From assembly GCF_000993805.1 (NCBI RefSeq), contig NZ_CP009961.1, positions 1,170,453-1,202,452 of the forward strand: a stretch of DNA of 32,000 nucleotides, given 5' to 3'. The notes beneath the pieces were generated by a model. The model searched no databases. It had not been told where the DNA came from and was given only the letters and a program-made list of their open reading frames with translations. Positions 4,548-30,956 of the stretch are shown in pieces. Source of the stretch: Infirmifilum uzonense (GTDB lineage Archaea > Thermoproteota > Thermoprotei > Thermofilales > Thermofilaceae). The position numbers were made by a program, and so were the translations under genes. Within the stretch, counting starts at the first letter, position 1; every line of letters begins with the position of its first letter.

Positions 4548-4932
4548 CCCTAGTATATCTTCTTCGCCTCCTATTCCTCGAGGAGGTTTTCAAGCATGCT
4601 CCTGTGCTCCTCTAGCTCCTCGAGTATTGCATCGATGCTGTCGAGTGCCTTCCTGTGGTCTGGGAGGATGTCAGCATATGCCTTGAAAGGGGCTATACGT
4701 GTGCAGGACTTGGGCCTCGAAATAAACGCTGCATAAACATATGCTTGGACATCGCCCACAAGACAGGATACAGCCCACTAACACCAAGCGAGATCAAAGC
4801 CTTTGTGTCGACACGGAGTGGAGTCATTACTCGCCGAGAAGAAGGGCAAGATACGCCCATCGGGATTCAGAAAATAACCCTTTAACAGGGAAACCTCGCC
4901 CTTCAGGGCGGGGAGGAGGTCAGGCAGGGCGT
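4548..4932 (-). pseudogene. degraded copy 1 of a repeated small coiled-coil ORF element. The remnant ORF is 4571-4759 with a GTG start.
   Basis: The C-terminal 36 aa (AYADILPDHRKALDSIDAILEELEEHRSMLENLLEE) align with the ORF at 16908-17165. DNA similarity also continues about 25 nt past the stop (ccctagtat..) and resumes upstream at 4836-4932. About 150 nt of unrelated sequence and an in-frame stop lie between these two similar blocks. Confidence 0.55.
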
Positions 4933-15799: not shown

Positions 15800-15879
15800 T
15801 TCTTGGCTATAGACCGTGAGGAGCATAATAATTTTCACTACAAACTCAGAGCACTTTTCTATGAGGCCCCAGGCAGGCC
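15800..15879 (+). repeat. copy A of an ~80-nt direct repeat
   Basis: It matches 16770-16849 with only 2 mismatches (tcttggctatagaScgtgaggagcataataattttcactacaaactcagagcacttttctatgaggccccaggcagRcc). Confidence 0.9.
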
Positions 15880-15948: not shown

Positions 15949-16022
15949 TGGGGCCGCCGGGATTTGAACCCGGGACCACCAGCGCCCCAGGCTGGCATCC
16001 TACCAAGCTAGACTACGGCCCC
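15949..16022 (-). tRNA. tRNA-Pro(GGG), intron-less
   Basis: The reverse complement gives a perfect 74-nt cloverleaf: GGGGCCG TA GTCT AGCTTGGTA GGAT G CCAGC CTGGGGC GCTGG TGGTC CCGGG TTCAAAT CCCGG CGGCCCC A. Confidence 0.92.
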
Positions 16023-16164: not shown

Positions 16165-16695
16165 TTATTCTGAAGAATGATGAGAAGGCATTTGTTTGAC
16201 CGCCGTGACAACGAAGATTTCATCACCCGCACTCTCAATAAGCTTTTGAATCGAGAAGCCTTCAAGGGAAACAATCTTGGTAAGTTTTTTCTTTATGGAG
16301 ATGACAGCAATTCCAGCTGGTTTCAGCACCCTATGAATCTCCCTTATTGCTTCCGGAACCTCGTGGAGAACGGTTATGCAGGCTGCAGCTTCAAAGGCAT
16401 TATCTCGGATAGGAAGTATCTTGGCGTCCGCGCGCAGAGCATCTGAGATAACGCGATGATTTTTGCCTTTGAATATTCTAAGCATTCCTTTAGAAAGGTC
16501 TAGGCATAGGTAGTATTCAGCCTTTTTGAGCATTTCACCAAGGATTCCAGTACCACAACCCACATCAAGTATCTTTTTTGAACCCTCTAAAAATCCATAG
16601 GCTATAAAATTCTTCCTGCCTTGCTCTTCGCCATAAAGCTCGTCATAGAGGGGGGCAAGATCGTCATACGAGAGAGACATAGTCTTTTTACCCAT
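16165..16695 (-). CDS. class I SAM-dependent methyltransferase
   Basis: 176-aa ORF with SAM-binding motif I (ILDVGCGTGILG) and the following acidic loop (CLDLS). The substrate is unknown. Confidence 0.7.
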   Translation of the reverse strand: MGKKTMSLSYDDLAPLYDELYGEEQGRKNFIAYGFLEGSKKILDVGCGTGILGEMLKKAEYYLCLDLSKGMLRIFKGKNHRVISDALRADAKILPIRDNAFEAAACITVLHEVPEAIREIHRVLKPAGIAVISIKKKLTKIVSLEGFSIQKLIESAGDEIFVVTAVKQMPSHHSSE

Positions 16696-16769: not shown

Positions 16770-16849
16770 TTCTTGGCTATAGAGCGTGAGGAGCATAATA
16801 ATTTTCACTACAAACTCAGAGCACTTTTCTATGAGGCCCCAGGCAGACC
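16770..16849 (+). repeat. copy B of the ~80-nt direct repeat
   Basis: See copy A. The two copies are 970 bp apart in direct orientation. Confidence 0.9.
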
Positions 16850-16907: not shown

Positions 16908-17165
16908 TCATTCCTCGAGGAGGCCTTCAATCCTGTCTGAGAGTTCTTCAAGCTCCCTAAGCATCGCATCGATGCTGTCAAGTACTACTCTGTAGTCTGG
17001 CAGGATGTCAGCGTAGGACCTCACCAAGAAGAAAGATAACACCAGGAGCCAGAGAATAACCCCTAAGAGGGGTAACCGGGAGCCCGCCCTAGTGGCGCAG
17101 GGCGGCAGGCTGCATGGCTTAAACAGTGTCCATAATATTCGCGAGCTCTTCCCATGAGATTTCAA
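16908..17165 (-). CDS. small membrane-anchored coiled-coil protein. This is copy 2, the only apparently intact copy of the repeated ORF family.
   Basis: 85-aa ORF with one hydrophobic helix (LLGVILWLLVLSFFLV) followed by the conserved tail SYADILPDYRVVLDSIDAMLRELEELSDRIEGLLEE. Its start overlaps the oxidoreductase 3' end by 47 nt, so the start is uncertain. Confidence 0.5.
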   Translation of the reverse strand: MKSHGKSSRILWTLFKPCSLPPCATRAGSRLPLLGVILWLLVLSFFLVRSYADILPDYRVVLDSIDAMLRELEELSDRIEGLLEE

Positions 17166-18186: not shown

Positions 18187-18413
18187 TAAAATTGATTATG
18201 TTTCCGTAGATCCTGTTCTGTAGTGTGAGTTTTAAGAGCCAGCCGCGAAGCAGAAAGAATACATCGTCTACCCTTCACTCCTCTTCAGCGGGGATCTTAA
18301 GGTAACACCTTTGACTCTGAGGACACCGCTCTTAGATGACACTGAAACAAAAATAATCCTTGCACCGATACCTGTTTATTGGATATACAGGTAAACTGCG
18401 CGTATTGAGAAAC

Positions 18414-18531
18414 GGCTCCAGCACCACCCTTTCCCGGGGCACGCGGACCCCAGTACTCGGGTTGGCGCACCCCCCTTAGCTTCCGGGTTCGGAATGAGTC
18501 CGGGCGTGGCAGGGGTGCTATGGCCGGAGCC
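18414..18531 (-). rRNA. rrf: 5S ribosomal RNA, stand-alone
   Basis: The reverse complement reads GGCTCCGGCCATAGC...CCCGGACTCATTCCGAACCCGGAAGCTAAG...GGTGCTGGAGCC. It has the universal 5S loop-C/helix-III core, and its ends pair to form helix I. Confidence 0.9.
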
Positions 18532-19791: not shown

Positions 19792-20232
19792 TTGATGGAG
19801 TTAGATGGAGCTGGGCTTGAACGGGAAGTTGAAGAAAAGGTTCAGCATGTGTTAAAGGGTGTTTCAGAAACTCTGGAAAAATATGTCAAGGAAAGGAACC
19901 TTTCAATAGTTGAAGCAAAGGAGCTGTTGGAGTCCTTAGAGCCAAGCTTTAAAATCATTACGAAGAAGTGGGGGCTTCTAATCCTCTACACTCTTCTCCT
20001 AATGGGTCCTTCCTCGTTTAGCAAACTACACGAAGTTACAGGAGTAAACAAAAGAAGTCTTTCAACTAGGCTGAAGGAGCTTGAGAAGGGAGGATTCATT
20101 AAAAGAACTGTTAGGACAGAGCCTCCGATTTCGACGCATTATACTCTCACACAGACAGGACGAGACACTGCATTACTTATGATTCCTCTCATCTACTATG
20201 TATCTAAGAAAATGCCTCTTCACGAATTCTAA
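19792..20232 (+). CDS. HxlR/MarR-type winged-helix transcriptional regulator
   Basis: 146-aa ORF. The pattern KKWGLLILYTLL..GPSSFSKLHEVTGVNKRSLSTRLKELEKGGFIKR...HYTLTQTG matches the HxlR wHTH pattern. Its 3' end overlaps the convergent ATPase gene by 29 nt. Confidence 0.65.
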   Translation: MMELDGAGLEREVEEKVQHVLKGVSETLEKYVKERNLSIVEAKELLESLEPSFKIITKKWGLLILYTLLLMGPSSFSKLHEVTGVNKRSLSTRLKELEKGGFIKRTVRTEPPISTHYTLTQTGRDTALLMIPLIYYVSKKMPLHEF

Positions 20233-21247
20233 GAAATACTTTCCGTGGTCTTGGATCTCCTTGTCTGAAGAAGAGTGCGGTACCCCGCGACGCAAACAAG
20301 ACGTGGTCTTTTTCGTCGTTTGTTATGGAGAATAGAGCTGCGATGTCCCTAATATAGCTCTCAGATCCACTGAGGACCAAGACAAAACCAGCTAATTGAT
20401 ATAATCTGATGTCAAACTCTCGCGGAAGCTGCGAAATAGCTATAAGACTATACCCCCACTTTCGGATTTCCTTATAGAGCGATAGTAGATATTTGGAGAA
20501 CAAGTGCGCTTCCTCTAGAATTATGATCTGTTCTAATCTTTTCTTTACCCCTTGTGAGCGGCGGTAGCCCTGTAGTAGTAAGAGTAAGACTTGTATTGAA
20601 AGTCTCCCTATTTCTTGGGAGACCATAGTTGGAAAATAGAAATAGATGTCCCTATCGGAGAGCTCTGCGATCGTTGGAGCGTCCCCGTGAATTCTTATTA
20701 AATCATCATAGAGCCGACTTATATCGGGATCCTCGTCCACAAATTTTTCCATGGGAGAAAGCGATCCCTCTTTGAGACATCTAAGTATGAGTTTTCTGAT
20801 CACGTTTCTAGACCCATAGTATGCATAGATTAACTCGATATACCTGCTGAGCTCGCTTGCATACTCTTCGTGTGACCAGCCGGGTATACTTAGAATGTTT
20901 ATCTTATCAACTGTCATTTTTATTGAATTATCAAATAATCGTTTGTATGCCTCCTCGCCATGAGGATCGATTACCCAGGCCTTGACCCCTTTCTCGCGTG
21001 CCTCCAAAATTATATGCCTTGAAAGCGTCGACTTTCCACTACCACTCGTTCCAAGTATTACACCATGTACGTTGGGTAGACTGTAAGGATTAAGATATAT
21101 ATTCCTCCCCTTGTCATCAACGCCTAATAATATTCCTTGTCCTTCTTCACGAGGTGGTACTACAGCCAGCGGAGAGAGCACGGGTATCACATCACCCGCT
21201 AGAACCATAACGTACCTCTTCTCGAGTAAATGGCGTAGTGATTGCAC
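20204..21247 (-). CDS. VirB4/HerA-superfamily P-loop ATPase (TrbE/CedB-like, ATPase domain only)
   Basis: 347-aa ORF with Walker A (GVILGTSGSGKST), VIDPHGE, Walker B (IIILEEAH) and a following ISQ motif. This arrangement is typical of DUF87/AAA_10 VirB4-HerA ATPases. It is the last gene of a 5-gene minus-strand operon. Confidence 0.65.
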   Translation of the reverse strand: MQSLRHLLEKRYVMVLAGDVIPVLSPLAVVPPREEGQGILLGVDDKGRNIYLNPYSLPNVHGVILGTSGSGKSTLSRHIILEAREKGVKAWVIDPHGEEAYKRLFDNSIKMTVDKINILSIPGWSHEEYASELSRYIELIYAYYGSRNVIRKLILRCLKEGSLSPMEKFVDEDPDISRLYDDLIRIHGDAPTIAELSDRDIYFYFPTMVSQEIGRLSIQVLLLLLQGYRRSQGVKKRLEQIIILEEAHLFSKYLLSLYKEIRKWGYSLIAISQLPREFDIRLYQLAGFVLVLSGSESYIRDIAALFSITNDEKDHVLFASRGTALFFRQGDPRPRKVFLRIREEAFS

Positions 21248-21255
21248 GGTGATAA

Positions 21256-22329
21256 TTATTCTAGAGTTTTTAAGGCCAACATATCAGGTTCGAAGTGCAA
21301 GCCCATACGCTCCATGGTATCTCTAATTTCTTTAGGTGCTATTAGTAAGCCGTTAACCAGGAAAACAGGTTCTCTTCTTTCCCATCTTCTCCTAGAGGCG
21401 AAAAAATATTTCTGACTTTCGTGGAGCATGCTCAGCTTATCAAGAGCTGTTCCCATTTCATAAACCCTGTAAGCATGAGAATCTAGGCTGGCAGCAATTT
21501 CCCATGGCGCAGGCTTTAACCTCATGGCCATGAAGGGTATAGTGGACACAATACTGTATACGACGCGGGCTCTGGTGTATATTTCTCTCAAGGATGGATA
21601 GGTATAGGTAACTGTAGCTTTTTTTAGACCCCATACTTTTAAACCTCCGTTCTGTATGCTTACTTTATAAACAATTCCCTTGCCCGATGAAAGAGCAAGT
21701 ATCTCTAGTGCCAGGATTACTACAAGAGGTGGGAATAACCCGGATACAAGTATCGTAGATATAAGGGTTAGGAGCTGTCGTACAGGATTCGTTTTCACCT
21801 CGATCAGCTCAGGAGGCCTTAATAAGCCTTTTAACTCCGACCCAGCCAGAACACGATAGGAGCAACCTAGAAGTTCAAAACCTCTTAAAAATGCTTCCCT
21901 CATGCTTTTCAGCTCGTCTTTGATCCTTTTTCCCTCGTATTCACAGACCTTAAGGACAATAAACATCTCTCCTTTAACAGTGATGAATATATATTCACCA
22001 CCTGCTGTGAAAGCAGTAGAGAAAAAAGAAAGTGAGCTTAACCAGAAATCCTTCTCGTTAAGATCGTAGCAACCATGACGGCAGTCCAAAACCTGGAATC
22101 CAAGATATACGCAAGGCTTATTACCTGAGTAAGAGAAGCAAATCTTCCTTAAACATTCCAGGTGATTTAATGGAAGACCACCATGCATCATATGCACTAT
22201 ATACGGATAAATCTCTCTTGAGATAACTACGATAGATAATCCAAGTAATATTAAGGATAGCTCAATGGAATATGCTCGTGTAAAGAAGCCAGCTATTAAG
22301 AACATGAGAAAGATTATAGCCCTACCCAC
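21256..22329 (-). CDS. membrane protein of unknown function, possibly a VirB3/VirB4 N-terminal-domain analogue
   Basis: 357-aa ORF with two N-terminal hydrophobic helices, one central hydrophobic segment, and soluble regions. There is an 8-nt gap to the ATPase gene and an 8-nt overlap with the upstream gene. No motif was recognised. Confidence 0.5.
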   Translation of the reverse strand: MGRAIIFLMFLIAGFFTRAYSIELSLILLGLSIVVISREIYPYIVHMMHGGLPLNHLECLRKICFSYSGNKPCVYLGFQVLDCRHGCYDLNEKDFWLSSLSFFSTAFTAGGEYIFITVKGEMFIVLKVCEYEGKRIKDELKSMREAFLRGFELLGCSYRVLAGSELKGLLRPPELIEVKTNPVRQLLTLISTILVSGLFPPLVVILALEILALSSGKGIVYKVSIQNGGLKVWGLKKATVTYTYPSLREIYTRARVVYSIVSTIPFMAMRLKPAPWEIAASLDSHAYRVYEMGTALDKLSMLHESQKYFFASRRRWERREPVFLVNGLLIAPKEIRDTMERMGLHFEPDMLALKTLE

Positions 22330-24778
22330 TAATATCCGACCTCAATTTCTCCCATATTATTCTCCAGCGATCATTTTTTGCAGCCCCAAAAGTAAGCCCC
22401 GGATCCTTACCCAGATACATTTTCTTAGCCATCTTCACTATAGACTCGTTCTCGTTTTTAAGCTGGTCAAGAGCTTTTAACCGATAGAGGAGCTGGAGTG
22501 ATTCGACCTCGTATCCTTTCTCAGCATACAGCTTGTTAAGTCTAAGTAATTCCTTAAAGACGCGAGGATTTGCAAGCCAGATAAATAGAAGAATCCTATC
22601 TATGCTCTCTATACTTGTACTATTTTCCACAAGGTCAGATAACTCCTTAGTGTGCTCAGATCTAATCTTTCGGATATCAACAGTAACTAGTTCACGGTAT
22701 TTTATGGTCATCAGCTCAGCTAATTTTGGGTTTAGCTTCCTTAATGTTATATCGTTGAGTTTGAAGTAAAGCTGTCCGCGTGAAAAAGCATGATAACCTA
22801 AACTAGAGACTAGTATTCTCTTAAGGGGGCTCAAGATTCTTTGAGCACCATGACTTATTGCGATATCGAATCGTCTCGCGGAAATCCTGAATTTCTTCTT
22901 CGATAAAAGATAGAAGTTATGGAGAAATATATTTCTCTTTCTCTCATTAACTACCTTTAAGAATAAGGGTACAGGTGCCTCGTTGACTTTTTCAAGTGCT
23001 GAGATCAGGCGACTCTTGTTTGGTATGCTTGTAATTCTGACACCCGAAGGAGTAATTATTTTAACTAAAATTTTATCCCGATCACCAGGCTTCGACCTCG
23101 TCGAGAAAAATACATTTATGGTTCTTGAGAGATTTGCTATTTTAGTCTTTGAAATAGTTTGACGGAAGAAAGTGGATAAAGCTACTTCTAAGCTGCCACC
23201 TAAGCCTACAATGCTAGTAGTTTCAATTAAAATAACAAAGAGAGCATTATAGAGAACGATGAATGAGCCAAGAAAATTAATAGGTGCACTAATTAAGTGT
23301 TCAGACACTTGACTTATTATTTCCCAGTGCGAGACATAAATGGGTATAAAGGACTCGTTCCAAACTCCCCTGCCTATTATCGTTATATTCAAAATGGGTT
23401 GGAAGATTTTGGTCTCGTTGCACTTGTCTAGTGAGAGATATACTGTTTGCTCCTCGAATCGTGGAATAGGGAAGTTTGTGACGTTGGATTCAAGAAAAAC
23501 ATCCATTTCTGGAAAGACTCTTACTCTCTTGAGCCATTCCGCACTCCTTTGTAAAGCACGCTGATACCACAAGGCATCTATCCTTCGTCCTGGGGGTAGA
23601 GCCCTAGAAGTTGAAATGTTTATGAGGCATGAAAGACCTTCTGACTCGAATCTTTCTATGGTAAATCCGCCGCCTCTAAAACTGATGAAGACCCCCTTTT
23701 TCAAACTACTTTCCCCTAGATAGTAGCTCACATAACCCTCTCCTCTCACAGAGGGGTGAATAGGTTTGTCTCCTGCGAAGGCTATCACATGACCCGTATG
23801 ACCTTGTGGGGTCTCAATTATGTCTACTGGGAGTGAAACAGTCAAGTTTACCGTTAAGCCACTACTGACGTTAAAGACAGCAGGCCATACGTAACAACTG
23901 CAATAACTCCACGCTCTATCCTTCTCTTCCAGATAACAGCAACTATTGAGAGTAAAGTTTGTCCAATACTCGGTAACCCACAGAGCCTTGTATTTCCCAG
24001 CAGGAAGTATCAGGATTGACCCTTCCCTTACTCTTGAAACGTACAAATTTCCTTCGTGGTCCCGTAAACCTAACAAAATAAGCGGTCTGTATATCGGAGT
24101 TCCAGATGCTTCCCGTACTTGAACGTGAAGGTAACCTAGACCACTTGGAGGATTTATTCCAGGAACTTCACTTAATCTTATCTCAGGGAAATTCCTTACC
24201 TGTAATGGTAGAATTACACTTACTGCCAAAAAAAGTAACCATACAGGAAGTATTAGTCTTCGCAGGCGTGGAATGAAAATTAGAGGTATAAGTGTTAGTA
24301 GTAGAGAATAGATGAAGGGTAAAAGGGTCGTCAGCCTCAACAATAAATGAGAGATAAATGCCGTCGTTCCAATAAGGTTACCGAGGGTCTCTAAAAAGCT
24401 AAGAGACACATGCATCCAAGGCTGATATAGTGAGAGTAGTTCTGCAGTTGCGGGTCCACCTGCTCCGGCGAAGACTATCCCAATGATTATATCAAAAACC
24501 GCTATAGACAAGGATAAGGAGACTATCCTACTGTGATATTCTTTCATCCTTGAAATCAACTGGGTAAGGGTCTCCGAGACCGCCCAGTATAAGCTGTTTC
24601 CAACCTTACTCAGTTCAGGATAGAAAATAACTAGCAGAGAAAAAGATGCTAGAAATCCTATCAACTCGGATAAGAATATTCTCAGAGCACGTTTCTTGAA
24701 TCCCAGAGACCAGTAAAGTAAAACGACAATACTTGTAGAGGCAAGTCCGACTCCAAATACCAGCTCATCTTGAGGCAA
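22322..24778 (-). CDS. large polytopic membrane protein with an extracellular sequon- and Cys-containing domain and a cytoplasmic helical C-terminal domain
   Basis: 818-aa ORF. About 6 hydrophobic helices lie in residues 1-192. Residues 195-495 carry many N-x-S/T sequons and a CC..C.C cluster. A further hydrophobic segment spans residues 497-535, followed by a basic helical tail of about 280 aa. Confidence 0.6.
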   Translation of the reverse strand: MPQDELVFGVGLASTSIVVLLYWSLGFKKRALRIFLSELIGFLASFSLLVIFYPELSKVGNSLYWAVSETLTQLISRMKEYHSRIVSLSLSIAVFDIIIGIVFAGAGGPATAELLSLYQPWMHVSLSFLETLGNLIGTTAFISHLLLRLTTLLPFIYSLLLTLIPLIFIPRLRRLILPVWLLFLAVSVILPLQVRNFPEIRLSEVPGINPPSGLGYLHVQVREASGTPIYRPLILLGLRDHEGNLYVSRVREGSILILPAGKYKALWVTEYWTNFTLNSCCYLEEKDRAWSYCSCYVWPAVFNVSSGLTVNLTVSLPVDIIETPQGHTGHVIAFAGDKPIHPSVRGEGYVSYYLGESSLKKGVFISFRGGGFTIERFESEGLSCLINISTSRALPPGRRIDALWYQRALQRSAEWLKRVRVFPEMDVFLESNVTNFPIPRFEEQTVYLSLDKCNETKIFQPILNITIIGRGVWNESFIPIYVSHWEIISQVSEHLISAPINFLGSFIVLYNALFVILIETTSIVGLGGSLEVALSTFFRQTISKTKIANLSRTINVFFSTRSKPGDRDKILVKIITPSGVRITSIPNKSRLISALEKVNEAPVPLFLKVVNERKRNIFLHNFYLLSKKKFRISARRFDIAISHGAQRILSPLKRILVSSLGYHAFSRGQLYFKLNDITLRKLNPKLAELMTIKYRELVTVDIRKIRSEHTKELSDLVENSTSIESIDRILLFIWLANPRVFKELLRLNKLYAEKGYEVESLQLLYRLKALDQLKNENESIVKMAKKMYLGKDPGLTFGAAKNDRWRIIWEKLRSDISG

Positions 24779-25570
24779 TTAGATCCTCACCACTGAAACG
24801 TAAATAGAGTCAAACACCCCCGCTAAACCATAACCTGCTACTATCGAAATACTAAATGCTAAAGCTATGAGTGTGGCACTTTCGCCCAACTTGATCGTAA
24901 TGTCGCTGACCTTAGAGGAAACACTTATCCAGTCTACAGGGTTTAATGGAGAAATTTCCGGGATTTTTTCAAGATCTCTTGAAACTATTTGTGCGCTGAG
25001 GATAAATGAGATGCTTGTAGCAAGATATATGGCCAGAAGTGATGCTCCTACGCGTCTAATCTTTGGCACAGGTAGAAGAATAGAGCCTATAAGAGCTAAG
25101 TAAGGGGCAAGCACCGAGAAGAATTTTGCTGCATAGCTTAGATGCATATAGAAAATTGCTAATATCGAGAGCTCTGAGATGGCCCAACCTGTTGCAGCTC
25201 CTAGAACACTTGAGAGCGGTGATGTTAACGGAGCCGAAGCTAAGAGAGCACGTTCTGTTTGCACATACATAATTGTGGAGATAGCTTTTTGGCTGGCCTC
25301 CCAAAACACGCTGCTTGAATATGAAATCTTCTCGCTTACTGTACCCGTTGCATTAAAACTTAGAGGAATTTGAATATATGATGCGATCAGGTCTGCAATC
25401 CAAAAAATCACTTGTAATGCGAGCAGGTGGATTAATATGTCTACGACAGCTTCAAGACTCTCGATGGCCTCTCTCCTTTTCCCAAGAATCCATTTTACAG
25501 AACCAGAGAGAATGTATATAATGGCGGCAAGGCCTGCAGCATAGTCGGCTAAAAGCATGATGTCAACCAC
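24779..25570 (-). CDS. polytopic integral membrane protein (candidate VirB6/CedA-like channel component)
   Basis: 263-aa ORF that is almost entirely hydrophobic helices (about 6-7). It abuts the downstream gene directly and overlaps the upstream gene by 8 nt. Confidence 0.5.
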   Translation of the reverse strand: MVDIMLLADYAAGLAAIIYILSGSVKWILGKRREAIESLEAVVDILIHLLALQVIFWIADLIASYIQIPLSFNATGTVSEKISYSSSVFWEASQKAISTIMYVQTERALLASAPLTSPLSSVLGAATGWAISELSILAIFYMHLSYAAKFFSVLAPYLALIGSILLPVPKIRRVGASLLAIYLATSISFILSAQIVSRDLEKIPEISPLNPVDWISVSSKVSDITIKLGESATLIALAFSISIVAGYGLAGVFDSIYVSVVRI

Positions 25571-26054
25571 CTAGGGAAGTTGTTATTAGACGCCATCCCC
25601 GCTGCAGTAGGTTTTCCATGATCTTAGCGACTGAGGAGATTTCTGGAATTCCAAGCGAGTTAAGTATCATTATCACGAAAAACAACAGTGGTAATATGGC
25701 CAGTGTTTCAGCAGCCCTGATGAATTTCGAAACCGCTATACTGCGTCCGAAACTTCCTCCGGTGACCCAGGAGAGAGCTGCATCGAGTATGAGCAATATG
25801 AAGCCAATGATTCCTATCCCGAATGTTATAGCAGCTAATAATGCAATCACGTCCACAAATGGTTGAAAAATCTTGGAAAGTAGTTCTTCTGGGCTAACAG
25901 TAAGTAAGGTGGCTGGAGGTGTAAGCATAAGCGCTAAGTTATCGTCTACTTCTTTCCAGTCTACTCTTCGTTTCAAACGGGGACGACTCCTCTTTAGATA
26001 TCCTTCGTAAACTACTTGGAGAAATCTCAGTTTTAATTTCCTTATGAACATCAA
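25563..26054 (-). CDS. small two-helix membrane protein (candidate VirB2/CedA1/TedC-like pilin)
   Basis: 163-aa ORF. The likely true start is the ATG at 26051. A basic N-terminal ~60 aa is followed by two long hydrophobic helices (VDVIALLAAITFGIGIIGFILLILDAAL and AETLAILPLLFFVIMILNSLGI). These are joined by a short loop containing R/K. Confidence 0.45.
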   Translation of the reverse strand: MMFIRKLKLRFLQVVYEGYLKRSRPRLKRRVDWKEVDDNLALMLTPPATLLTVSPEELLSKIFQPFVDVIALLAAITFGIGIIGFILLILDAALSWVTGGSFGRSIAVSKFIRAAETLAILPLLFFVIMILNSLGIPEISSVAKIMENLLQRGWRLITTSLGG

Positions 26055-26137: not shown

Positions 26138-26866
26138 GTGGGAGTCATGACCTTAGTAGTAGCTACAGTTTCTGGACATAAAGGTGGTACCGGCAAGACT
26201 GTCGTGGCTTCTCTCTTGAGCTACCATCTATCGACACGCATCGGGGAGAAAGTACTGGTTATAGATCTAGGAGAAGCAGGCAGCAGTACGACACTTCTCC
26301 TCGAGGAGGACCCAGGACCTCCATACATAAGCGATTTTTTCCTAGGCAGAGCCACATGGTCTGATGTTATAGTCGTTTCAAACTTGTCAGATAACTTGAT
26401 GATTGTTCCATGCAGTGGAGAAGTGGGCCCTGTTGATCCCACGTCGCTTGAATACCTAATTGATAGGACTTCAAAACACTTCGAGTATATAATATTGGAT
26501 TTGCCGGCATACCCTGGAAGCTTGTACGACCCAGTGGTAGGATTAGCCGAAGTTATTATCACAGTGTTTAACCCGGATTTTCTATCATTCCAGGCGGTAT
26601 CCACATGGCTTAAACGTCGAGATTTTTTCAGGAGGAAGCTTATCCTGCCTTTGTTAAACAAGTACTTTCTCTTCATGGGGGACTGGAAAGATCTCGCCCG
26701 GGATGAATTTGGAACAGTGTTCACAATGCCCTTCGATGCCGCCCTGCAGTTTTCATTTGCAAGAAATATTGGTGAAGCCTACAAGAACGCCAGTAACCGT
26801 GTCAAAAAAGACCTTGAGGTATTGACTTACAGACTCCAGAAGCCCTTACTTAAGGTGACTGGCTAA
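26138..26866 (+). CDS. ParA/MinD-family ATPase (CpaE/TadZ-like)
   Basis: 242-aa ORF starting at GTG 26138, although the ATG at 26147 is the more likely start. It has the deviant Walker A GHKGGTGKT, an A' motif (VLVIDLGE) and Walker B (YIILDLPA). Confidence 0.75.
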   Translation: MGVMTLVVATVSGHKGGTGKTVVASLLSYHLSTRIGEKVLVIDLGEAGSSTTLLLEEDPGPPYISDFFLGRATWSDVIVVSNLSDNLMIVPCSGEVGPVDPTSLEYLIDRTSKHFEYIILDLPAYPGSLYDPVVGLAEVIITVFNPDFLSFQAVSTWLKRRDFFRRKLILPLLNKYFLFMGDWKDLARDEFGTVFTMPFDAALQFSFARNIGEAYKNASNRVKKDLEVLTYRLQKPLLKVTG

Positions 26867-27213
26867 TGAGCTTTAGAAGACCTTTTACCTCTGTTAAGGA
26901 TAACGAGGAACCCCCTATTTTACCGCTACCCTCTTTGAGTCAAAAAAGCCCGGTAAAAATAGAGGATAAAAACATAAGCGATAACAGTGAGTCTCTCGGC
27001 AAAGGCATAAGAAATCTTGAGGCGGTTTTGCGGAGCCTCGGGGTTGAGGAAAACATCTCTACACGGATAACAAATAGGCTTAACGAGATTGACAGGGAGC
27101 TAAGCAGAATAAACAGTGAAATAGCAAAGCTAGAGCGCGAGAAAGAGAACCTTCTGGCAGAGCGCGAGAAAATCACCAAAGCCTTGAGACTATTTTCCGG
27201 GATCACGGAATGA
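26866..27213 (+). CDS. small coiled-coil protein of unknown function
   Basis: 115-aa ORF. The N-terminal half is Pro/Ser-rich and looks disordered. The C-terminal heptad-like region reads RLNEIDRELSRINSEIAKLEREKENLLAEREKI. It overlaps the upstream gene by 1 nt and the downstream gene by 4 nt. Confidence 0.55.
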   Translation: MSFRRPFTSVKDNEEPPILPLPSLSQKSPVKIEDKNISDNSESLGKGIRNLEAVLRSLGVEENISTRITNRLNEIDRELSRINSEIAKLEREKENLLAEREKITKALRLFSGITE

Positions 27214-28361
27214 AGCTATCGCTTAGCTTTTTAAAAAACAAGAAAAAAGGAGATGAGACCATTGCTAAGGTCGCAGTAAATACCCTTTTACCTGAAGGAG
27301 CTAAAATCATATTAAAGAACCACTCGGGATTTCTCTTCAGTTATGACTCGAAGCTGGAGATACTTCCCCTTAAAACGCATCCTGTTTGGAAAAATCTTTC
27401 CCCTCTTTTCATGGCGCGTGAAGTTGAGGAGATATGGGTTTTCGAGTCGAGAACTGTTGTGACCATAAAGAATCTAGGACGAATTAGTATAGAGGGGCTT
27501 CCAAGTAAAGAAGAACTTGAGGATATCATAGTCTCGATAATAGCCTCGACTGGTTTAAAGGTAGATATGAGAAGGCCTAGAGGCGTCGTAGACGTGGACG
27601 AGTGGAGAGTGTCTGTACAGTTAACAAGCGGTGGACAAACACAAATCGTTGCAACAAAGCTTTCAAGTATCCCTCCCTTAAAGAGTCTCTTGGATCCTCT
27701 AACAGCTGCCAGAATGATTCTCCTCTTATTGAGGCCCTCCGTAGTAGTGATCCTCGGTCCACCTGGCTCTGGGAAGACTACTCTCCTTAACAGCATCGTG
27801 GGCGAAGTTGGTAAGATGTACCCACATCTCCACATCGCAGTTATTGAGAAGTATAAAGAGCTTACATTGAGGGAGGGTTGGTTCTCTTGGATAGTCAGCG
27901 AAAATCTCGTGGAGGGGGTAAGGTGGGCGATGCGCTACTACAGACCCGACATGGTTGTAATAGGGGAAATAATGGCTGAAGACTTCTGGAGCGTTATCGA
28001 GCCTAGCCGTAGCGGGTTACCAACAATTACAACTTTTCACTCGCCCAGCATCAGAAAAGCAATAAAAATTCTCTCAGACTCTCTGAGGGCTCAGCTAGGA
28101 TATGGAGATGAAAGTAGTGCACTGCAATACATCGACGTATTTGTTCAAACTTTTAAAAGGGTTACCCCGCAAGGAGTGGAAAGAGGAGTTGAGAACATAC
28201 TTTTGAGCGATGGTCAAAGACTCATCCCAATATACTCTGACGGACAAGCCGCTCCCAAAGAGATATTCGAGAAGGCTTTACCAGATCAGCTCTACATCGG
28301 TTCAACCGCAAAAACAATGAGAGAAATATTCCAGAGATATGGATTGACACCCGAAAGGTAG
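27210..28361 (+). CDS. type II/IV secretion-family hexameric ATPase (VirB11/TadA/FlaI-like)
   Basis: 383-aa ORF with Walker A (LGPPGSGKTT), Walker B (RPDMVVIGEI) and a His box (TITTFHSPS), in the order characteristic of GspE/VirB11-superfamily ATPases. Confidence 0.75.
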   Translation: MKLSLSFLKNKKKGDETIAKVAVNTLLPEGAKIILKNHSGFLFSYDSKLEILPLKTHPVWKNLSPLFMAREVEEIWVFESRTVVTIKNLGRISIEGLPSKEELEDIIVSIIASTGLKVDMRRPRGVVDVDEWRVSVQLTSGGQTQIVATKLSSIPPLKSLLDPLTAARMILLLLRPSVVVILGPPGSGKTTLLNSIVGEVGKMYPHLHIAVIEKYKELTLREGWFSWIVSENLVEGVRWAMRYYRPDMVVIGEIMAEDFWSVIEPSRSGLPTITTFHSPSIRKAIKILSDSLRAQLGYGDESSALQYIDVFVQTFKRVTPQGVERGVENILLSDGQRLIPIYSDGQAAPKEIFEKALPDQLYIGSTAKTMREIFQRYGLTPER

Positions 28362-28368
28362 CAAAATC

Positions 28369-29769
28369 TTGCGTGTCCTAGAGGTATTCGAGAAGGCCGG
28401 GCTTAAGCCTAGGCCCGGACAGGTTGAGGCTGCTGAGGCTTTAGCTGGTGTCGAGGGTGATGCATTACTGGTAGCGCCCACAGGGTTTGGAAAAACCCTT
28501 GCCGTATTGTCTGCTTTTAGATCTTCTGGGAGGCTTCCTGTCTTGTGGCTGGTGAGGAGCCTGGAGCTCGGAAGTAGGATAAGCGGGGATGCCTTAAGGC
28601 TAGACTTGAAGCCCTTCATCGCAGCCGGGAGGGCCAGGTCCTGCAGCGTGAAGACGGACGACCCGGAAGAATACTGCTTGATTAACAGGTCACGCTGCCC
28701 CTTCTTCCAAAACTTGAAAGAGGGGGTTCCAGACCTCTTCTATACGAGTTGGGAGGAGATACCCTCCCATCTCTGCAGGTACTATGCACAAGACTTCTAC
28801 ATCGCCGCCGCCGACGTAGTGGTTCAGAACTATAGGCGGAGAGTAGTTGGAAGCTACAGAGCAGTAGTTGTGGACGAGGCACATAACCTCTTGAAGCCCA
28901 ACATTGTTGAGATAAAGGGTTTAGGAGAGGCCCTAGACGCCCTAGACGCACTGAACCCGGAACTGGGGGAGAAGATAAGAGGGATTATCAATAAGGGGGT
29001 AGCCTCAATAGACTTGGATGTCATAGAAGAGACGCTCATCGTTTACAGGGAAGAATTCGCGAAGGGGTCATTCATGGCCCGGAGACTACTACCCCTGGTA
29101 AGGTTTCTCAAAGCCGCTTCTAGGGGAATCGTCTACAGGGAAGAGGGTAAAGTCATGGTCGCCCTGCCTCCCTGGAGGCCCAGCATCGGCCCCCGCATCT
29201 ACCTTAGCGCTACTATTCCTAAACCCATCGAAGACCTCTTTCAAGCCGCCGTTATCCGGGTGCCTTCAGAGCCGAGGAAGGCCCTCGTGGTCGGCGACGT
29301 GACCACTAGGTACGGGGAGGAGACGATATGGGGGTACATGAAGCTGCTTTCAAGCCTGAAAAAGAGGCATAAACGCATCCTGGCATTCGCGACTGACAGG
29401 ATCATAGTCAAACTGGTGAGCGTAATAGACTTTCTCGACGAAAAGCCCCCGGACGACTGGCGCGGCCTGGCAATGTTTAATGTCTTCGGGCGTTTCAGCG
29501 AGGGGGTAGACCTGCCGGCAGACGCTGTCGTAATGGTCGGGGCCCCCTTCCTTCCACCCGACGTGACGGAGCGCCTGCGAAAGTACTACTACCGGATGGG
29601 CATCGACCCCGACAACGCCCGGTGGATACCCATGGTTACAGCAACACTCCAGGCTATAGGCAGGGCCACGCGCAGTCCAGAGGCAAGCCCAGAGATCATT
29701 CTCGCCGACTACCGCTTCAAAAAGTTCGCGAAATACTTCGAGCCAGTGCTACACCTTCAAGATTCCTAG
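28369..29769 (+). CDS. XPD/Rad3/DinG-family SF2 helicase, short form with a putative 4Fe-4S domain
   Basis: 466-aa ORF with a TTG start as listed. It has motif I (APTGFGKT), four Cys between motifs Ia and II (C-x10-C-x6-C-x27-C), motif II (VVDEAHNL), motif III (YLSATIP), motif V (GRFSEGVDLP) and motif VI (QAIGRATR). Its G+C content is visibly higher than that of the neighbouring genes. Confidence 0.75.
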   Translation: MRVLEVFEKAGLKPRPGQVEAAEALAGVEGDALLVAPTGFGKTLAVLSAFRSSGRLPVLWLVRSLELGSRISGDALRLDLKPFIAAGRARSCSVKTDDPEEYCLINRSRCPFFQNLKEGVPDLFYTSWEEIPSHLCRYYAQDFYIAAADVVVQNYRRRVVGSYRAVVVDEAHNLLKPNIVEIKGLGEALDALDALNPELGEKIRGIINKGVASIDLDVIEETLIVYREEFAKGSFMARRLLPLVRFLKAASRGIVYREEGKVMVALPPWRPSIGPRIYLSATIPKPIEDLFQAAVIRVPSEPRKALVVGDVTTRYGEETIWGYMKLLSSLKKRHKRILAFATDRIIVKLVSVIDFLDEKPPDDWRGLAMFNVFGRFSEGVDLPADAVVMVGAPFLPPDVTERLRKYYYRMGIDPDNARWIPMVTATLQAIGRATRSPEASPEIILADYRFKKFAKYFEPVLHLQDS

Positions 29770-29974
29770 TTCGGAAAATGTTCAACGTTTTTCATCACCC
29801 ACCCGGATAAGGGTCTCCTTTACGCTCGACCTGTTCGGTTTTAGAATTTTCGCCTCTGGTAGCCAGGCTAGAAAGCCAACCCATGAGGTTTAGAGAATAA
29901 TCATTGTTGCTTATCTTCTCTATTTTCTTCTCTACTTGTTGAATGATTGTTAAACGTTAGTCTGAGGGGTGAGG

Positions 29975-30229
29975 TTACAGCTTTCCAAAAGACTGGAGAG
30001 TAGAAGATTTCCAGCCCTCGAGAATGCCCTCGATCCCGCTTTGGAGTTCTTCCAGCCCCCTCAGCATTACATCTATGCTGTCGAGAGCCTTCCCTTAGTC
30101 TTGCAGGATGACAGCGTAGGCCCTCAACGAGAAGAAAGATAACACCAGGAGCAAGAGCCAACCCCCCAGAGGAATAACCCGGGAGCCACCCCCCAGTGGT
30201 GCAGGCCGCCGGCAACATTTTGGAAGCAC
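29975..30229 (-). pseudogene. copy 3 of the small coiled-coil ORF family, interrupted by an in-frame TAA
   Basis: In the family frame the minus strand reads ..GGSRVIPLGGWLLLLVLSFFSLRAYAVILQD*GKALDSIDVMLRGLEELQSGIEGILEG.. The stop at 30095-30097 replaces the Tyr/His codon of copies 1 and 2. The 105-aa ORF in the track (29901-30218) is in a different frame. Confidence 0.6.
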
Positions 30230-30269: not shown

Positions 30270-30956
30270 ATGTATTACGTCTGTATGACGTTCGACCTTG
30301 AGGTAATAATGGGGGATCTAACGGACACTGAGCGGAAGATCGTCGAGTTTTTCATTAAACAGGGTGGAACTGCACGTGAAATTGCCTCGTCGCTCAACGT
30401 ATCTGAGCGTACAGTATACAAAGCACTTTACAAGTACCGTAAGATAGCCCGTGAAAAAGGTATTGACCCTAGCGCTTTCTATCTTCGAGGAACAATTCAA
30501 GTACCGGCAAGATCGTCTAACAGTTCTCCTGTGATACAACCAGATCATATTGAGCTTCTTAAGAAAGAATTGCTAAAGGAACTCGCTGAAATACTTGAAA
30601 AAAGCGTTCACGAGGCTGTTCTAAGTGCATTCGAGGAACTCTCTTTAGCCTCAAGTGCAACTCTTAGAAGAAGTTCTCCAATGAGAACCCCTCAGCTCAA
30701 TTCAGAGGAACCTGATATAACCATATATAGAAGGCTTGCTGAAAACCTTGAACGCCTGAACTATAACATTGAGAAATTATCGATTAAACTGGAAAACCTC
30801 AATGGGGGACAGCTAACGCAGAAAATAAGCTACCTACAGTATAGTACTGGAGACAATAACCACGGAAATAATGAAATGCTGCCTAGTTTTGTCCAAAACA
30901 ACCCCTGGATTGAGGTATTACAGAAAAAGACCAAGAGCACTAGTAGTTTAAGATAA
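30270..30956 (+). CDS. helix-turn-helix DNA-binding protein with a C-terminal coiled-coil region
   Basis: 228-aa ORF. The probable true start is the ATG at 30309, preceded by GAGGT. The N-terminus reads LTDTERKIVEFFIKQGGTAREIASSLNVSERTVYKALYKY, a sigma-r4/LuxR-like HTH. The rest is helical or low complexity. Confidence 0.55.
   Translation: MYYVCMTFDLEVIMGDLTDTERKIVEFFIKQGGTAREIASSLNVSERTVYKALYKYRKIAREKGIDPSAFYLRGTIQVPARSSNSSPVIQPDHIELLKKELLKELAEILEKSVHEAVLSAFEELSLASSATLRRSSPMRTPQLNSEEPDITIYRRLAENLERLNYNIEKLSIKLENLNGGQLTQKISYLQYSTGDNNHGNNEMLPSFVQNNPWIEVLQKKTKSTSSLR

What the first reader, a model, noticed from the sequence alone, without database searches (positions are those of the whole stretch)
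28369..30229. Abrupt G+C jump at the XPD-like helicase gene and the adjacent pseudogene
I hand-counted individual 60-nt lines. Within 28369-29769 they give roughly 47-62% G+C: 62% at 29461-29520, 57% at 29221-29280 and 29581-29640, and 52% at 28441-28500. Lines in the neighbouring genes give about 37-45%: 37% at 28021-28080 in the ATPase gene only 300 nt upstream, and 45% at 23161-23220. The change coincides with the 7-nt junction between the ATPase and helicase genes. It persists through copy 3 of the small-ORF element, to about 30230, and the HTH gene after that is AT-rich again. This suggests the helicase and the repeat element were acquired or replaced together from a higher-GC source and grafted onto the operon. 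The helicase is also short, at 466 aa with a reduced Arch region, compared with canonical archaeal XPD.
Basis: seen in the sequence. Interest (0 to 1): 0.65.

Follow-up and report, generated by a model that had tools for sequence, protein, structure and literature searches.

The report
Helicase gene overwritten by GC-rich copy
One gene in a hot-spring archaeon (Infirmifilum), a short XPD-like DNA helicase at the end of a conserved operon, is far richer in G+C than the rest of the window, most likely because a G+C-richer related copy overwrote it by recombination, as can be seen directly in a sister genome.

Summary
The G+C jump is real. The helicase ORF (28369-29769) has 55.2% GC against 44.5% for the window. 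Its GC3 is 65.5% against 42±4% for 28 other ORFs (z≈5.9). Maximum-likelihood segmentation places the GC-rich block on this ORF.

The helicase is not a recent graft. The operon ParA / coiled-coil / VirB11-like ATPase / helicase, with a divergent VirB4-like membrane operon, is syntenic in seven Infirmifilum lineages. The helicase tree around the window matches its neighbours' tree.

The helicase does appear to be overwritten repeatedly:
- In Infirmifilum sp. SLHALR2 the operon helicase shows the same GC jump. It is an 82%-identical mosaic of a second helicase beside a ≥15-kb GC-rich island in the same genome. The converted tracts have island-like GC3 and the central tract has host-like GC3.
- I. 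lucidum and a close relative show a similar helicase-only divergence.

In the window, GC3 steps up about 170 nt inside the gene and dips in the Arch-coding centre, the same shape as in SLHALR2. No donor was found.

The adjacent small-ORF pseudogene is a separate feature. All three of its copies are 52-55% GC, and a 36-46% GC spacer lies between it and the helicase. It marks a strain-variable breakpoint.

Verdict: a new instance of in-situ gene conversion or replacement, of moderate interest.

The parts
28369..29769 (+). Short XPD-like Fe-S helicase gene (466 aa, TTG start). This is the GC-rich block: 55.2% GC, GC3 65.5%.
   Evidence: - Composition.
- Pfam Helicase_C_2 and DEAD.
- PDB profile hit to archaeal XPD 3crv, E=2.4e-33.
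- AF2 model with pLDDT 93; Foldseek best hits are DinG 9kqh and XPD 3crv (TMq 0.71).
- Purifying selection among strains, 14 variable nucleotides against 2 variable residues.
28542..29750 (+). Inferred imported or converted tract. GC3 is about 0.69, with a dip to 0.56 at codons 161-215. The first ~58 codons keep host-like GC3 (0.47).
   Evidence: - GC3 change point at 28542 (LLR 24.4, permutation p<=0.0005) and per-segment GC3 values.
- Right edge.
- Same profile shape as the SLHALR2 mosaic.
28474..28497 (+). Walker A motif (A36-PTGFGKT43). It lies just upstream of the GC3 step.
   Evidence: Invariant columns A36, G39, G41, K42 and T43 in the 29-sequence alignment. Sequence read.
28642..28776 (+). 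Four invariant cysteines (C92, C103, C110, C136), forming the 4Fe-4S cluster insertion typical of XPD/DinG helicases.
   Evidence: Invariant in 29 homologues. They align with the Fe-S region of SaXPD.
28873..28884 (+). DEAH box (D169-E170-A-H172).
   Evidence: Invariant D169, E170, H172 and N173.
28921..29118 (+). Reduced Arch-like insertion of four helices (residues ~185-250). It is the most variable part of the protein and has the lowest GC3 within the GC-rich tract.
   Evidence: - Secondary structure of the AF2 model.
- No Pfam HBB hit, unlike canonical XPD L035.
- Identity profiles of 24-50% in this region between lineages.
27210..28361 (+). VirB11/FlaI/DotB-like secretion ATPase (T2SSE family, 383 aa), immediately upstream of the helicase with a 7-nt spacer. 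Host-like composition (44.5% GC, GC3 0.45).
   Evidence: Its homologues are restricted to Infirmifilum-like contigs.
26866..27213 (+). Small coiled-coil protein (115 aa).
   Evidence: Weak coiled-coil, Rad50-like and SMC-like hits only. Conserved position in all syntenic loci.
26138..26866 (+). ParA/MinD-like ATPase (242 aa), first gene of the helicase operon.
   Evidence: Pfam AAA_31 and CbiA; NCBIfam MinD and ParA.
20204..26054 (-). Divergent five-gene operon:
- p165, with two long hydrophobic helices
- p259, with about 7 TM segments
- p814, with 6 N-terminal TM segments and a large domain
- p357, with 3 TM segments
- a 347-aa VirB4/HerA/CedB-like ATPase (20204-21247)
   Evidence: - Hydropathy.
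- DUF87 ATPase hits: NCBIfam CedB, CedD and VirB4 models, PADLOC HerA/mad8, PDB VirB4-like 4ag5.
- The membrane proteins match no family.
- Synteny.
29770..29974 (.). Spacer between the helicase and the small-ORF element. Its GC falls back to 45.8% and then 36.5%.
   Evidence: Five independent assemblies end their contigs here, at 29893-29957.
29975..30229 (-). Copy 3 of a small TM + coiled-coil ORF element, broken in two ways:
- an in-frame TAA at 30095-30097, where copy 2 has Tyr
- loss of the normal stop

GC is 54.9%. A strain breakpoint lies at 30208.
   Evidence: L007 diverges from the window at 30208, and both forms occur in one metagenome.
16908..17165 (-). Copy 2 of the small-ORF element (intact, 85 aa, 52.3% GC).
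4571..4759 (-). Copy 1 of the small-ORF element (62 aa, 51.9% GC), next to an intron-bearing tRNA.
30270..30956 (+). HTH protein gene (228 aa, 41.3% GC). It is present after the helicase in the window, L001 and L004 only.

Best explanation
**What the gene is.**
- It encodes a short XPD-like Fe-S helicase.
- It is the last gene of a chromosomal operon conserved in the genus Infirmifilum: ParA-like ATPase, coiled-coil protein, VirB11-like ATPase, helicase.
- This operon sits back to back with an operon of membrane proteins and a VirB4/CedB-like ATPase. Together they look like a domesticated conjugation-type (Ced/Ted-like) DNA-transfer module.

**What the G+C jump is.**
- It is the footprint of homologous replacement (gene conversion).
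- Most of the helicase ORF, from about codon 58 to the stop, was overwritten by a G+C-richer homologue.
- The homologue came from a closely related source, most plausibly a helicase carried by a GC-rich island or mobile module of the same lineage.
- The 5' end, the operon junction and all neighbouring genes stayed native.

**What is shown.**
- The compositional block and its boundaries.
- The conserved operon.
- The same process in SLHALR2, where both copies are visible, and a helicase-restricted divergence between I. lucidum and a close relative.

**What is inferred.**
- That the window's allele arose in the same way.
- The direction of transfer and that the event is recent.
- The DNA-transfer function of the module.

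**Small-ORF pseudogene.** The small-ORF pseudogene downstream is an independent repeated element that serves as a rearrangement breakpoint.
For: **1. The block is gene-sized and lies mainly at synonymous sites.**
- GC3 is 0.655 against 0.42±0.04 (z=5.9). GC1 and GC2 are raised only slightly.
- The maximum-likelihood segment coincides with the ORF.
- GC3 steps up at 28542, just after Walker A, and dips at the Arch-coding centre.

**2. It is not expression-linked codon bias.** The thermosome gene has GC3 0.475 and EF-1beta has 0.426.

**3. The codon choices match those of 53-56% GC Infirmifilum genes** (AGG, GCC, GGG/GGC, GAG).

**4. SLHALR2 shows the same thing.**
- Its operon helicase (L067 6248-7690) has 61.4% GC and GC3 0.753, against 0.43-0.61 in 19 neighbouring genes.
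- It is 82% identical to the second helicase of the same genome. That helicase lies at the edge of a >=15-kb island of 57-76% GC.
- All other inter-lineage helicase pairs are <=72% identical.
- Its ATPase neighbour groups with L003 and L006.
- Nucleotide similarity between the two copies is confined to the ORF. Tracts of 84-98% identity have GC3 of 80-92 over most of their length. They flank a ~300-nt tract of 50-67% identity with host-like GC3 of 52-62.

**5. I. lucidum (L003) against its close relative (L006).**
- Identity is 82-92% over 21 kb.
- It falls to 56-66% in the 5' two-thirds of the helicase, with discordant GC3.

**6. The helicase GC3 excess is specific to the Infirmifilum loci where the helicase ends the conserved operon.**
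- z = 5.9, 4.2, 1.9, 1.5 and 2.4 in five of these loci.
- A sixth operon locus, L064, has none.
- There is no excess where the helicase is stand-alone in other Thermofilaceae.

**7. The site is recombinationally active.** There is a strain breakpoint at 30208, and assemblies break at 29893-29957.

**8. The junction is real.** Six assemblies agree, and depth is flat across it.
Against: - No donor was found. Nothing lies between 61% and 100% identity among 5.8 billion proteins. There is no 80-95% relative in the metagenomes that hold this strain. Nothing was found in the plasmid, phage or viral collections.
- The window's helicase shows no phylogenetic displacement and no mosaic in amino-acid identity relative to L001 and L004.
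- The window shares a derived non-overlapping ATPase|helicase junction with L001.
- Its dinucleotide signature is host-like.
- L001 and L004 also carry a smaller excess. That could point to a sustained local force rather than discrete events.
- No intermediate lineage is available for a before/after comparison. ATPase homologues also jump from 99% to 70%.
- The direction of conversion in SLHALR2 is argued from GC3 alone.
Confidence: 0.6

Rival explanations
1. The helicase is a vertically inherited orthologue whose high GC3 is generated or maintained in place. The force could be GC-biased repair at a recombination-prone operon end, or selection on the mRNA or DNA of this gene. No foreign or paralogous allele was imported.
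For: - The tree is congruent with the neighbours' tree, and the window shares its junction type with L001.
- The dinucleotide signature is host-like.
- Five of the six operon-type Infirmifilum loci examined before SLHALR2 show a positive excess; L064 shows none.
- No donor was found.
Against: - The GC3 step is sharp and lies inside the ORF, not graded.
- The size of the excess varies widely between sister lineages, from +5 to +23 points.
- L064 has no excess although it has the same operon.
- SLHALR2 shows that real conversion tracts from a GC-rich copy produce exactly this pattern.
- No known mechanism would confine mutation bias to one ORF.
Confidence: 0.22
2. The helicase and the adjacent small-ORF element were acquired together from a distant higher-GC organism and grafted onto a pre-existing three-gene operon in this genome.
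For: - The GC of 28369-30229 is above background as a whole (53.7%).
- A right boundary at about 30234 is statistically almost as good as one at the stop codon.
Against: - The four-gene operon including the helicase is conserved and syntenic across the genus.
- The helicase is sister to that of L001.
- The dinucleotide signature is host-like.
- The small-ORF element has the same 52-55% GC in its two other copies, far from any helicase.
- The spacer between helicase and element has 36-46% GC.
- L001 and L004 have the helicase without the element.
Confidence: 0.05
3. The GC excess comes from amino-acid composition or from expression-linked codon adaptation of an ordinary native gene.
For: GC1 and GC2 are somewhat high, at 0.58 and 0.42 against about 0.51 and 0.38. 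The protein is rich in Ala, Gly, Arg and Pro.
Against: - About three quarters of the excess is at third positions.
- Highly expressed genes in the window are not GC3-rich: the thermosome has 0.475 and EF-1beta 0.426.
- Orthologues in a low-GC Thermofilaceae genome have GC3 0.37 (L017).
Confidence: 0.05
4. The jump is a metagenomic mis-assembly that joins a helicase from a GC-richer organism to this contig.
For: - The window comes from a MAG.
- Many contigs break just downstream of the helicase.
Against: - The ATPase-helicase junction is identical in six independent assemblies from four NCBI and two ENA records.
- Single unitigs of uniform depth (17.2 and 20.3) span it in two runs.
- The helicase's N-terminus and junction are orthologous to those of L001.
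Confidence: 0.02

Closest known systems
Archaeal XPD/Rad3 helicase (e.g. Sulfolobus acidocaldarius XPD, PDB 3CRV; S. tokodaii 2VL7)
   Same: - SF2 fold with two RecA-like motor domains, Walker A and a DEAH box.
- A four-cysteine Fe-S insertion and the Helicase_C_2 C-terminal domain.
- A full-length profile match with E=2.4e-33 and Foldseek TMq 0.71.
   Different: - About 90-110 residues shorter. The Arch is reduced to four helices, with no Pfam DEAD_2 or HBB match.
- It is a separate paralogue. A canonical 576-aa XPD coexists with it in a Thermofilaceae MAG (L015 and L035).
- It is embedded in a secretion-ATPase operon, not a stand-alone repair gene.
DinG-type accessory helicases of mobile or defence systems (CasDinG of type IV-A CRISPR; PDB 8S35, 7XF0)
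   Same: - Same helicase superfamily. The best PADLOC hit is the typeIV_DinG model, E=2.4e-28.
- Like CasDinG, it is an accessory helicase wired to a multi-protein system with links to mobile elements.
   Different: - There are no cas genes or CRISPR array in the window or in related loci.
- CasDinG lacks the Fe-S cluster (my own knowledge), whereas this protein keeps four invariant cysteines.
Ced/Ted chromosomal conjugation-derived DNA-transfer systems of Thermoproteota (Beltran et al. 2023, PMC9905601)
   Same: - A chromosomal cluster with a VirB4/CedB-like ATPase, polytopic membrane proteins and a small protein with two hydrophobic helices.
- A ParA/MinD ATPase, which that paper lists as a frequent Ted neighbour.
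- Linkage to a helicase. The Ted loci carry HerA.
   Different: - There is no detectable sequence or structural similarity of the membrane proteins to TedA/TedC or CedA/CedA1.
- This cluster adds a VirB11/FlaI-like ATPase and an XPD-like helicase instead of HerA.
- The text search of that paper found no mention of Thermofilum; its Ted figure shows five other Thermoproteales genera.
Xenologous or orthologous gene displacement in situ, and gene conversion between chromosomal and element-borne paralogues (mosaic operons)
   Same: One gene of a conserved operon carries foreign-looking composition while its position and neighbours are unchanged. In SLHALR2 the tracts, the donor-like copy and the recipient are all visible.
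   Different: - The donor is so closely related that protein phylogeny around the window is not disturbed.
- The process appears to recur at the same gene in several lineages.

Membership tests
XPD/DinG (Rad3-like) SF2 Fe-S helicases | Motor core with Walker A (motif I) and a DEAH box (motif II) | tested here: met
   A36-x2-G39-x-G41-K42-T43 and D169-E170-x-H172 are invariant in 29 homologues. Pfam DEAD and ResIII match the N-terminal part.
XPD/DinG (Rad3-like) SF2 Fe-S helicases | Four-cysteine 4Fe-4S cluster domain inserted in helicase domain 1 | tested here: met
   C92, C103, C110 and C136 are invariant and align to the Fe-S region of SaXPD. Metal binding itself was not tested.
XPD/DinG (Rad3-like) SF2 Fe-S helicases | Helicase_C_2 type C-terminal motor domain | tested here: met
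   PF13307 with E=1.8e-12, above the gathering score.
XPD/DinG (Rad3-like) SF2 Fe-S helicases | Overall fold like solved XPD/DinG structures | tested here: met
   AF2 model with pLDDT 93.2 and pTM 0.90. Foldseek top hits are DinG 9kqh (E=4e-22) and XPD 3crv (E=2e-21, TMq 0.71).
Canonical archaeal XPD (the repair/TFIIH-type orthologue) | Full Arch domain (Pfam HBB) and DEAD_2 domain, length about 550-620 aa | tested here: not met
   - No DEAD_2 or HBB hit, and the protein is 466 aa. The Arch is about 66 residues in four helices.
- NCBIfam rad3 scores 34 bits against a cut-off of 247.
- A canonical XPD with these domains exists separately in Thermofilaceae (L035).
Canonical archaeal XPD (the repair/TFIIH-type orthologue) | 5'->3' DNA helicase activity | not testable with these tools
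   Needs biochemistry.
Type IV-A CRISPR-associated DinG | Encoded next to csf/cas genes and a CRISPR array | tested here: not met
   No cas families in the window's neighbouring genes. No array among the repeats.
Ced/Ted-type domesticated conjugation (T4SS-derived) system | VirB4/CedB/TedB-like ATPase | tested here: inconclusive
   - The 347-aa DUF87 ATPase (20204-21247) hits NCBIfam CedB over most of its length (E=3e-5), plus CedD, VirB4 and TraC models. All are far below their cut-offs.
- PDB VirB4-like 4ag5, E=6e-4, and HerA at about the same level.
Ced/Ted-type domesticated conjugation (T4SS-derived) system | VirB2-like pilin (CedA1/TedC) | tested here: inconclusive
   - p165 has two long, conserved hydrophobic helices joined by a polar loop.
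- It has no sequence hit in the PDB.
- The AF2 model is poor (pLDDT 66) and has no Foldseek match.
Ced/Ted-type domesticated conjugation (T4SS-derived) system | VirB6-like polytopic channel protein (CedA/TedA) | tested here: inconclusive
   p259 (about 7 TM) and p814 (6 N-terminal TM) are polytopic but match no family even at E<=1.
Horizontally or recombinationally imported segment (compositional island) | Composition significantly different from the host at synonymous sites, with sharp boundaries | tested here: met
Horizontally or recombinationally imported segment (compositional island) | Phylogenetic incongruence with flanking genes, or an identifiable donor | tested here: not met
   - For the window the helicase tree is congruent with the ATPase tree, and no donor was found.
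- The criterion is met in the related genome SLHALR2.

The most novel reading that the evidence does not exclude
The short XPD-like helicase may be the DNA-unwinding and substrate-selecting component of an undescribed Thermofilaceae chromosomal conjugation-like DNA-transfer machine. That machine would comprise a VirB4-like ATPase, a VirB11-like ATPase, ParA and orphan membrane or pilin-like proteins. The helicase would then supply the 'missing relaxase/helicase' function of archaeal Ced/Ted-type systems. On this reading it is a recurrent target: GC-rich mobile modules that carry their own version repeatedly overwrite the host copy. This could redirect the host machine towards element DNA, or reflect a specificity arms race. 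It would explain the hypervariable Arch region and why only this gene shows GC jumps in several lineages.
Probability: 0.15. Interest if true: 0.75.

Novelty: new member of a known kind. Interest (0 to 1): 0.45.

Why it matters
- The finding turns a bare compositional anomaly into a documented case. One gene of a conserved archaeal operon is repeatedly replaced or converted by GC-richer homologues while its neighbours stay put. In one sister genome the donor-like copy, the recipient and the tract boundaries are all readable.
- It is a caution for gene-tree-based HGT detection. In the window, protein phylogeny does not reveal the event; only the synonymous-site composition does.
- It flags an uncharacterised, genus-wide gene cluster in Infirmifilum with the ingredients of a domesticated conjugation-type DNA-transfer system plus an XPD-like helicase.
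- How archaeal Ced/Ted systems make single-stranded DNA without a relaxase is stated as an open question in the primary paper (PMC9905601). This helicase is a concrete candidate to test in a cultured species, I. lucidum.

Tried and rejected
**Donor search (nothing found).**
- The 5.8-billion-protein search gave nothing between 61% and 100% identity.
- One viral-contig scan gave only a single 25% hit.
- tblastn against the plasmid and phage collections gave no match.
- Metagenome contigs laid at >=80% likeness showed only the single-copy gene itself.
- A before/after comparison with a closer lineage was not possible. The ATPase neighbour also jumps from 99% to 70%.

**Tests that did not point to a foreign origin.**
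- Mosaic structure in amino-acid identity between the window and L001/L004: none beyond the conservation pattern common to all pairs.
- GC-normalised dinucleotide signature: the helicase is typical of the window (delta* 0.048 against a mean of 0.060), so a distant donor is rejected.
- Polarised SNP spectrum among the 99.5% strains: 7 AT>GC against 5 GC>AT in the helicase, and 20 against 27 elsewhere. The counts are too small to read.

**Explanations rejected.**
- Expression-linked codon bias, rejected using the thermosome and EF-1beta genes.
- One continuous GC block through the pseudogene, rejected because of the GC dip and the composition of copies 1 and 2.
- A conserved RNA in the spacer downstream of the helicase: the spacers are unalignable between lineages and have no Rfam hit.

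**Attempts to name the membrane proteins.**
- No Pfam, NCBIfam or PADLOC family even at E<=1.
- p165 has no PDB sequence hit. Its AF2 model is poor and has no Foldseek match.

- Folding an alignment that included locus-derived sequences.
- Laying reads on L002.
Full report
**1. The observation**

- The ORF 28369-29769 has 55.2% GC, the highest of all 1401-nt windows. The next non-overlapping one has 48.2% (profile).
- The excess lies mainly at third codon positions. GC3 is 0.655, against 0.33-0.51 for every other real ORF. Across 28 ORFs of at least 120 aa the mean is 0.421 and the SD 0.040, so z=5.9.
- GC1 and GC2 (0.58 and 0.42) are only slightly raised.
- A free two-boundary likelihood scan of the whole window places the GC-rich segment at 28376-29750, with a log-likelihood ratio (LLR) of 34. 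That is the helicase ORF.

Two refinements follow.

- Third positions alone give a change point at 28542, about 58 codons into the gene and just after the Walker A motif. GC3 is 0.448 before it and 0.685 after (LLR 24.4, permutation p<=0.0005). Within the gene, GC3 is 0.47 (codons 1-60), 0.72 (61-160), 0.56 (161-215) and 0.69 (216-466).
- After the stop codon, GC falls to 45.8% (29770-29900) and 36.5% (29901-29974). It then rises to 54.9% in copy 3 of the small-ORF element.

A right boundary at about 30234 is only 1.4 lnL units worse than one at the stop codon.

**2. Not an artefact**

- Six independent assemblies (four NCBI MAGs and two ENA assemblies) carry window 18369 onwards at 99.5% identity, including the ATPase-helicase junction.
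- In two hot-spring metagenome runs, single unitigs of uniform depth (17.2 and 20.3) span the junction. No second helicase-like sequence of 80% identity or more is present.
- Among the strains the helicase has 14 variable nucleotides but only 2 variable residues. It is therefore a functional gene under purifying selection.

**3. What the gene is**

- Pfam finds Helicase_C_2 and DEAD.
- A profile of 29 homologues matches archaeal XPD (3crv) over its full length, E=2.4e-33.
- Walker A, DEAH and four cysteines (C92, C103, C110, C136) are invariant.
- An AlphaFold model (pLDDT 93) matches DinG and XPD structures, with TMq 0.71 to 3crv.
- The Arch is reduced to four helices (residues ~185-250). The Pfam DEAD_2 and HBB domains are not detected. 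A canonical 576-aa XPD from Thermofilaceae does have them, and it coexists with a short helicase in the same MAG (L015 and L035).

The gene is therefore a distinct, short XPD-like paralogue, not the single XPD orthologue. The family has 58 close members. Those with a source name are Infirmifilum, Thermofilum, Thermofilaceae or unclassified Thermoprotei/Thermoproteales MAGs.

**4. Context**

The organism is an Infirmifilum sp.. The helicase is the last gene of the operon ParA-like ATPase (26138-26866), coiled-coil protein (26866-27213), VirB11/FlaI/DotB-like ATPase (27210-28361) and helicase.

A five-gene operon runs the other way. It encodes:

- a small protein with two hydrophobic helices;
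- a ~7-TM protein;
- an 818-aa protein with six N-terminal TM segments;
- a 3-TM protein;
- a 347-aa VirB4/HerA/CedB-like ATPase.

The cluster lies between housekeeping genes (5S rRNA, geranylgeranyl reductase and HxlR on one side; HTH and EF-1beta on the other). Synteny is as follows.

- The whole cluster is syntenic in L001, L004, I. lucidum (L003), L006 and SLHALR2 (L067).
- L064 carries the helicase-operon part; its contig ends upstream of it.
- In other Thermofilaceae the helicase stands alone among housekeeping genes.
- Elsewhere it follows a DUF87 ATPase next to PolB.

The cluster has the ingredients of the domesticated conjugation-type Ced/Ted systems, for which ParA and a helicase (HerA) are reported neighbours (PMC9905601). 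None of the membrane proteins matches any family, and the pilin idea could not be tested. The DNA-transfer function is therefore inference.

**5. Is the helicase foreign here?**

Protein phylogeny says no.

- Identities follow the neighbours' pattern. The helicase is 61% identical to L001, 56% to L004 and 45-48% to L003/L006. The ATPase values are 70%, 68% and 63-64%.
- NJ trees group window+L001(+L004) for both genes.
- There is no mosaic in amino-acid identity.
- The window and L001 share a derived 6-7-nt spacer where L003, L004 and L006 have a 4-nt overlap.
- The GC-normalised dinucleotide signature is host-like.

A distant donor, and a graft of the gene onto the operon in this genome, are therefore rejected. 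Expression-linked codon bias is also rejected, because the thermosome has GC3 0.475.

**6. What the relatives show**

(a) Infirmifilum sp. SLHALR2 carries the standard cluster (L067) and a second helicase (L002). The second helicase lies at the edge of a >=15-kb island of 57-76% GC with three HerA/VirB4-like ATPases and a TnpB-like gene, in a ~50% GC genome.

- The operon helicase has 61.4% GC and GC3 0.753, against 0.43-0.61 in its 19 neighbours. This is the same kind of jump as in the window.
- It is 82% identical to the island-side copy. Every other inter-lineage pair is <=72% identical, and its ATPase neighbour groups with L003 and L006.
- Nucleotide similarity between the two copies is confined to the ORF. 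Tracts of 84-98% identity carry island-like GC3 (80-92) over most of their length. They flank a ~300-nt centre of 50-67% identity with host-like GC3 of 52-62.
- This is the pattern expected of gene-conversion tracts. The direction, from island copy to operon copy, is inferred from GC3 alone.

(b) I. lucidum and a close relative are 82-92% identical over 21 kb. In the 5' two-thirds of the helicase they are only 56-66% identical, with discordant GC3.

(c) The helicase's GC3 excess over its locus is positive in five operon-type Infirmifilum loci (z = 5.9, 4.2, 1.9, 1.5, 2.4). It is absent in the stand-alone Thermofilaceae loci and in L064.

**7. Interpretation**

The window's GC3 profile runs host-like 5' end, high, dip at the Arch-coding centre, high. 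This has the same shape as the SLHALR2 mosaic.

I conclude, at about 0.6 confidence, that most of the window's helicase ORF was overwritten by a GC-richer homologue. The source was close, either a resident or related island-borne copy or a GC-richer relative.

The event must be much younger than the window-L001 split. Synonymous sites between those lineages are saturated (proteins are 60-80% identical), so an old excess should have decayed. This last step is inference.

The main rival, at about 0.2, is a sustained local force with no import. It is favoured by the congruent tree, the missing donor and the smaller excesses in L001 and L004.

**8. The adjacent pseudogene**

- The small-ORF element encodes a TM + coiled-coil peptide on the minus strand. 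Copy 2 (16908-17165) is intact. Copy 3 carries an in-frame TAA at 30095-30097 and has lost the normal stop.
- All copies have 52-55% GC wherever they lie. Copy 3's GC therefore does not link it to the helicase.
- Strain L007 leaves the window's sequence at 30208, inside copy 3. Both forms coexist in one metagenome, and five assemblies break at 29893-29957. The element is thus a rearrangement breakpoint.
- L001 and L004 have the helicase followed directly by the HTH gene, without this element.

**9. Verdict**

It was not a graft, and it did not come together with the repeat element.
- The finding is a new instance of a known evolutionary process, in an uncharacterised and potentially interesting archaeal gene cluster.

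Noticed in passing
window 15800-15879 and 16770-16849: An 80-nt direct repeat, 98% identical, brackets tRNA-Pro(GGG) (15949-16022, minus strand) and a methyltransferase ORF (16165-16695). It looks like a duplication or an att-like pair.
   Followed up: no
window 4410-4521 (+) and 15949-16022 (-): An intron-bearing tRNA at 4410-4521 was found by Rfam and missed by ARAGORN. Its exons are the reverse complement of the tRNA-Pro at 15949-16022 (33 nt at 100% and 31 nt at 94%). Small-ORF copy 1 begins 26 nt downstream of it.
   Followed up: no
window 30208 (inside small-ORF copy 3); L007 11839 onwards: This is a strain-level structural polymorphism.
- In GCA_049972805.1 the sequence after 30208 continues into unrelated genes (922-aa and 441-aa proteins and a KaiC-like ATPase) instead of the HTH gene.
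- Both forms occur in the same metagenome run.
- Depth rises to 27-38x over the repeat, against about 17-20x in the flanks.
   Followed up: partly
L003 10009-10750 vs L006 (I. lucidum and a close relative): The 5' two-thirds of the helicase is 56-66% identical at the nucleotide level, against 82-92% across the other 20 kb. The spacer after the helicase is 34-48% identical. This is an independent helicase-restricted replacement or mosaic.
   Followed up: yes
L002 1-15000 (Infirmifilum sp. SLHALR2, CP182482 629053-644000): A GC-rich island of at least 15 kb (57-76% GC in a ~50% genome). It carries three HerA/VirB4/FtsK-like ATPases, large orphan proteins and a TnpB-like gene, and ends at a helicase paralogue next to PolB. 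Its left end lies outside the fetched locus.
   Followed up: partly
window 26866-27213: The coiled-coil gene has the highest SNP density among the 99.5%-identical strains: 9 variable sites in 348 nt and 2 amino-acid changes. Neighbouring genes have 0-10 per kb.
   Followed up: no
L004 11390-11714: A very GC-rich 325-nt spacer lies downstream of the helicase in a 46% GC locus. It has no Rfam hit and cannot be aligned to the spacers of other lineages.
   Followed up: partly
window 27690-27990: There is a local GC3 bump (0.53-0.65) inside the otherwise host-like VirB11-like ATPase gene. It is unexplained.
   Followed up: no
window 18413-18531 (-): A 5S rRNA gene lies immediately beside the geranylgeranyl-reductase gene that flanks the cluster. 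The same arrangement occurs in L003 and L004.
   Followed up: no
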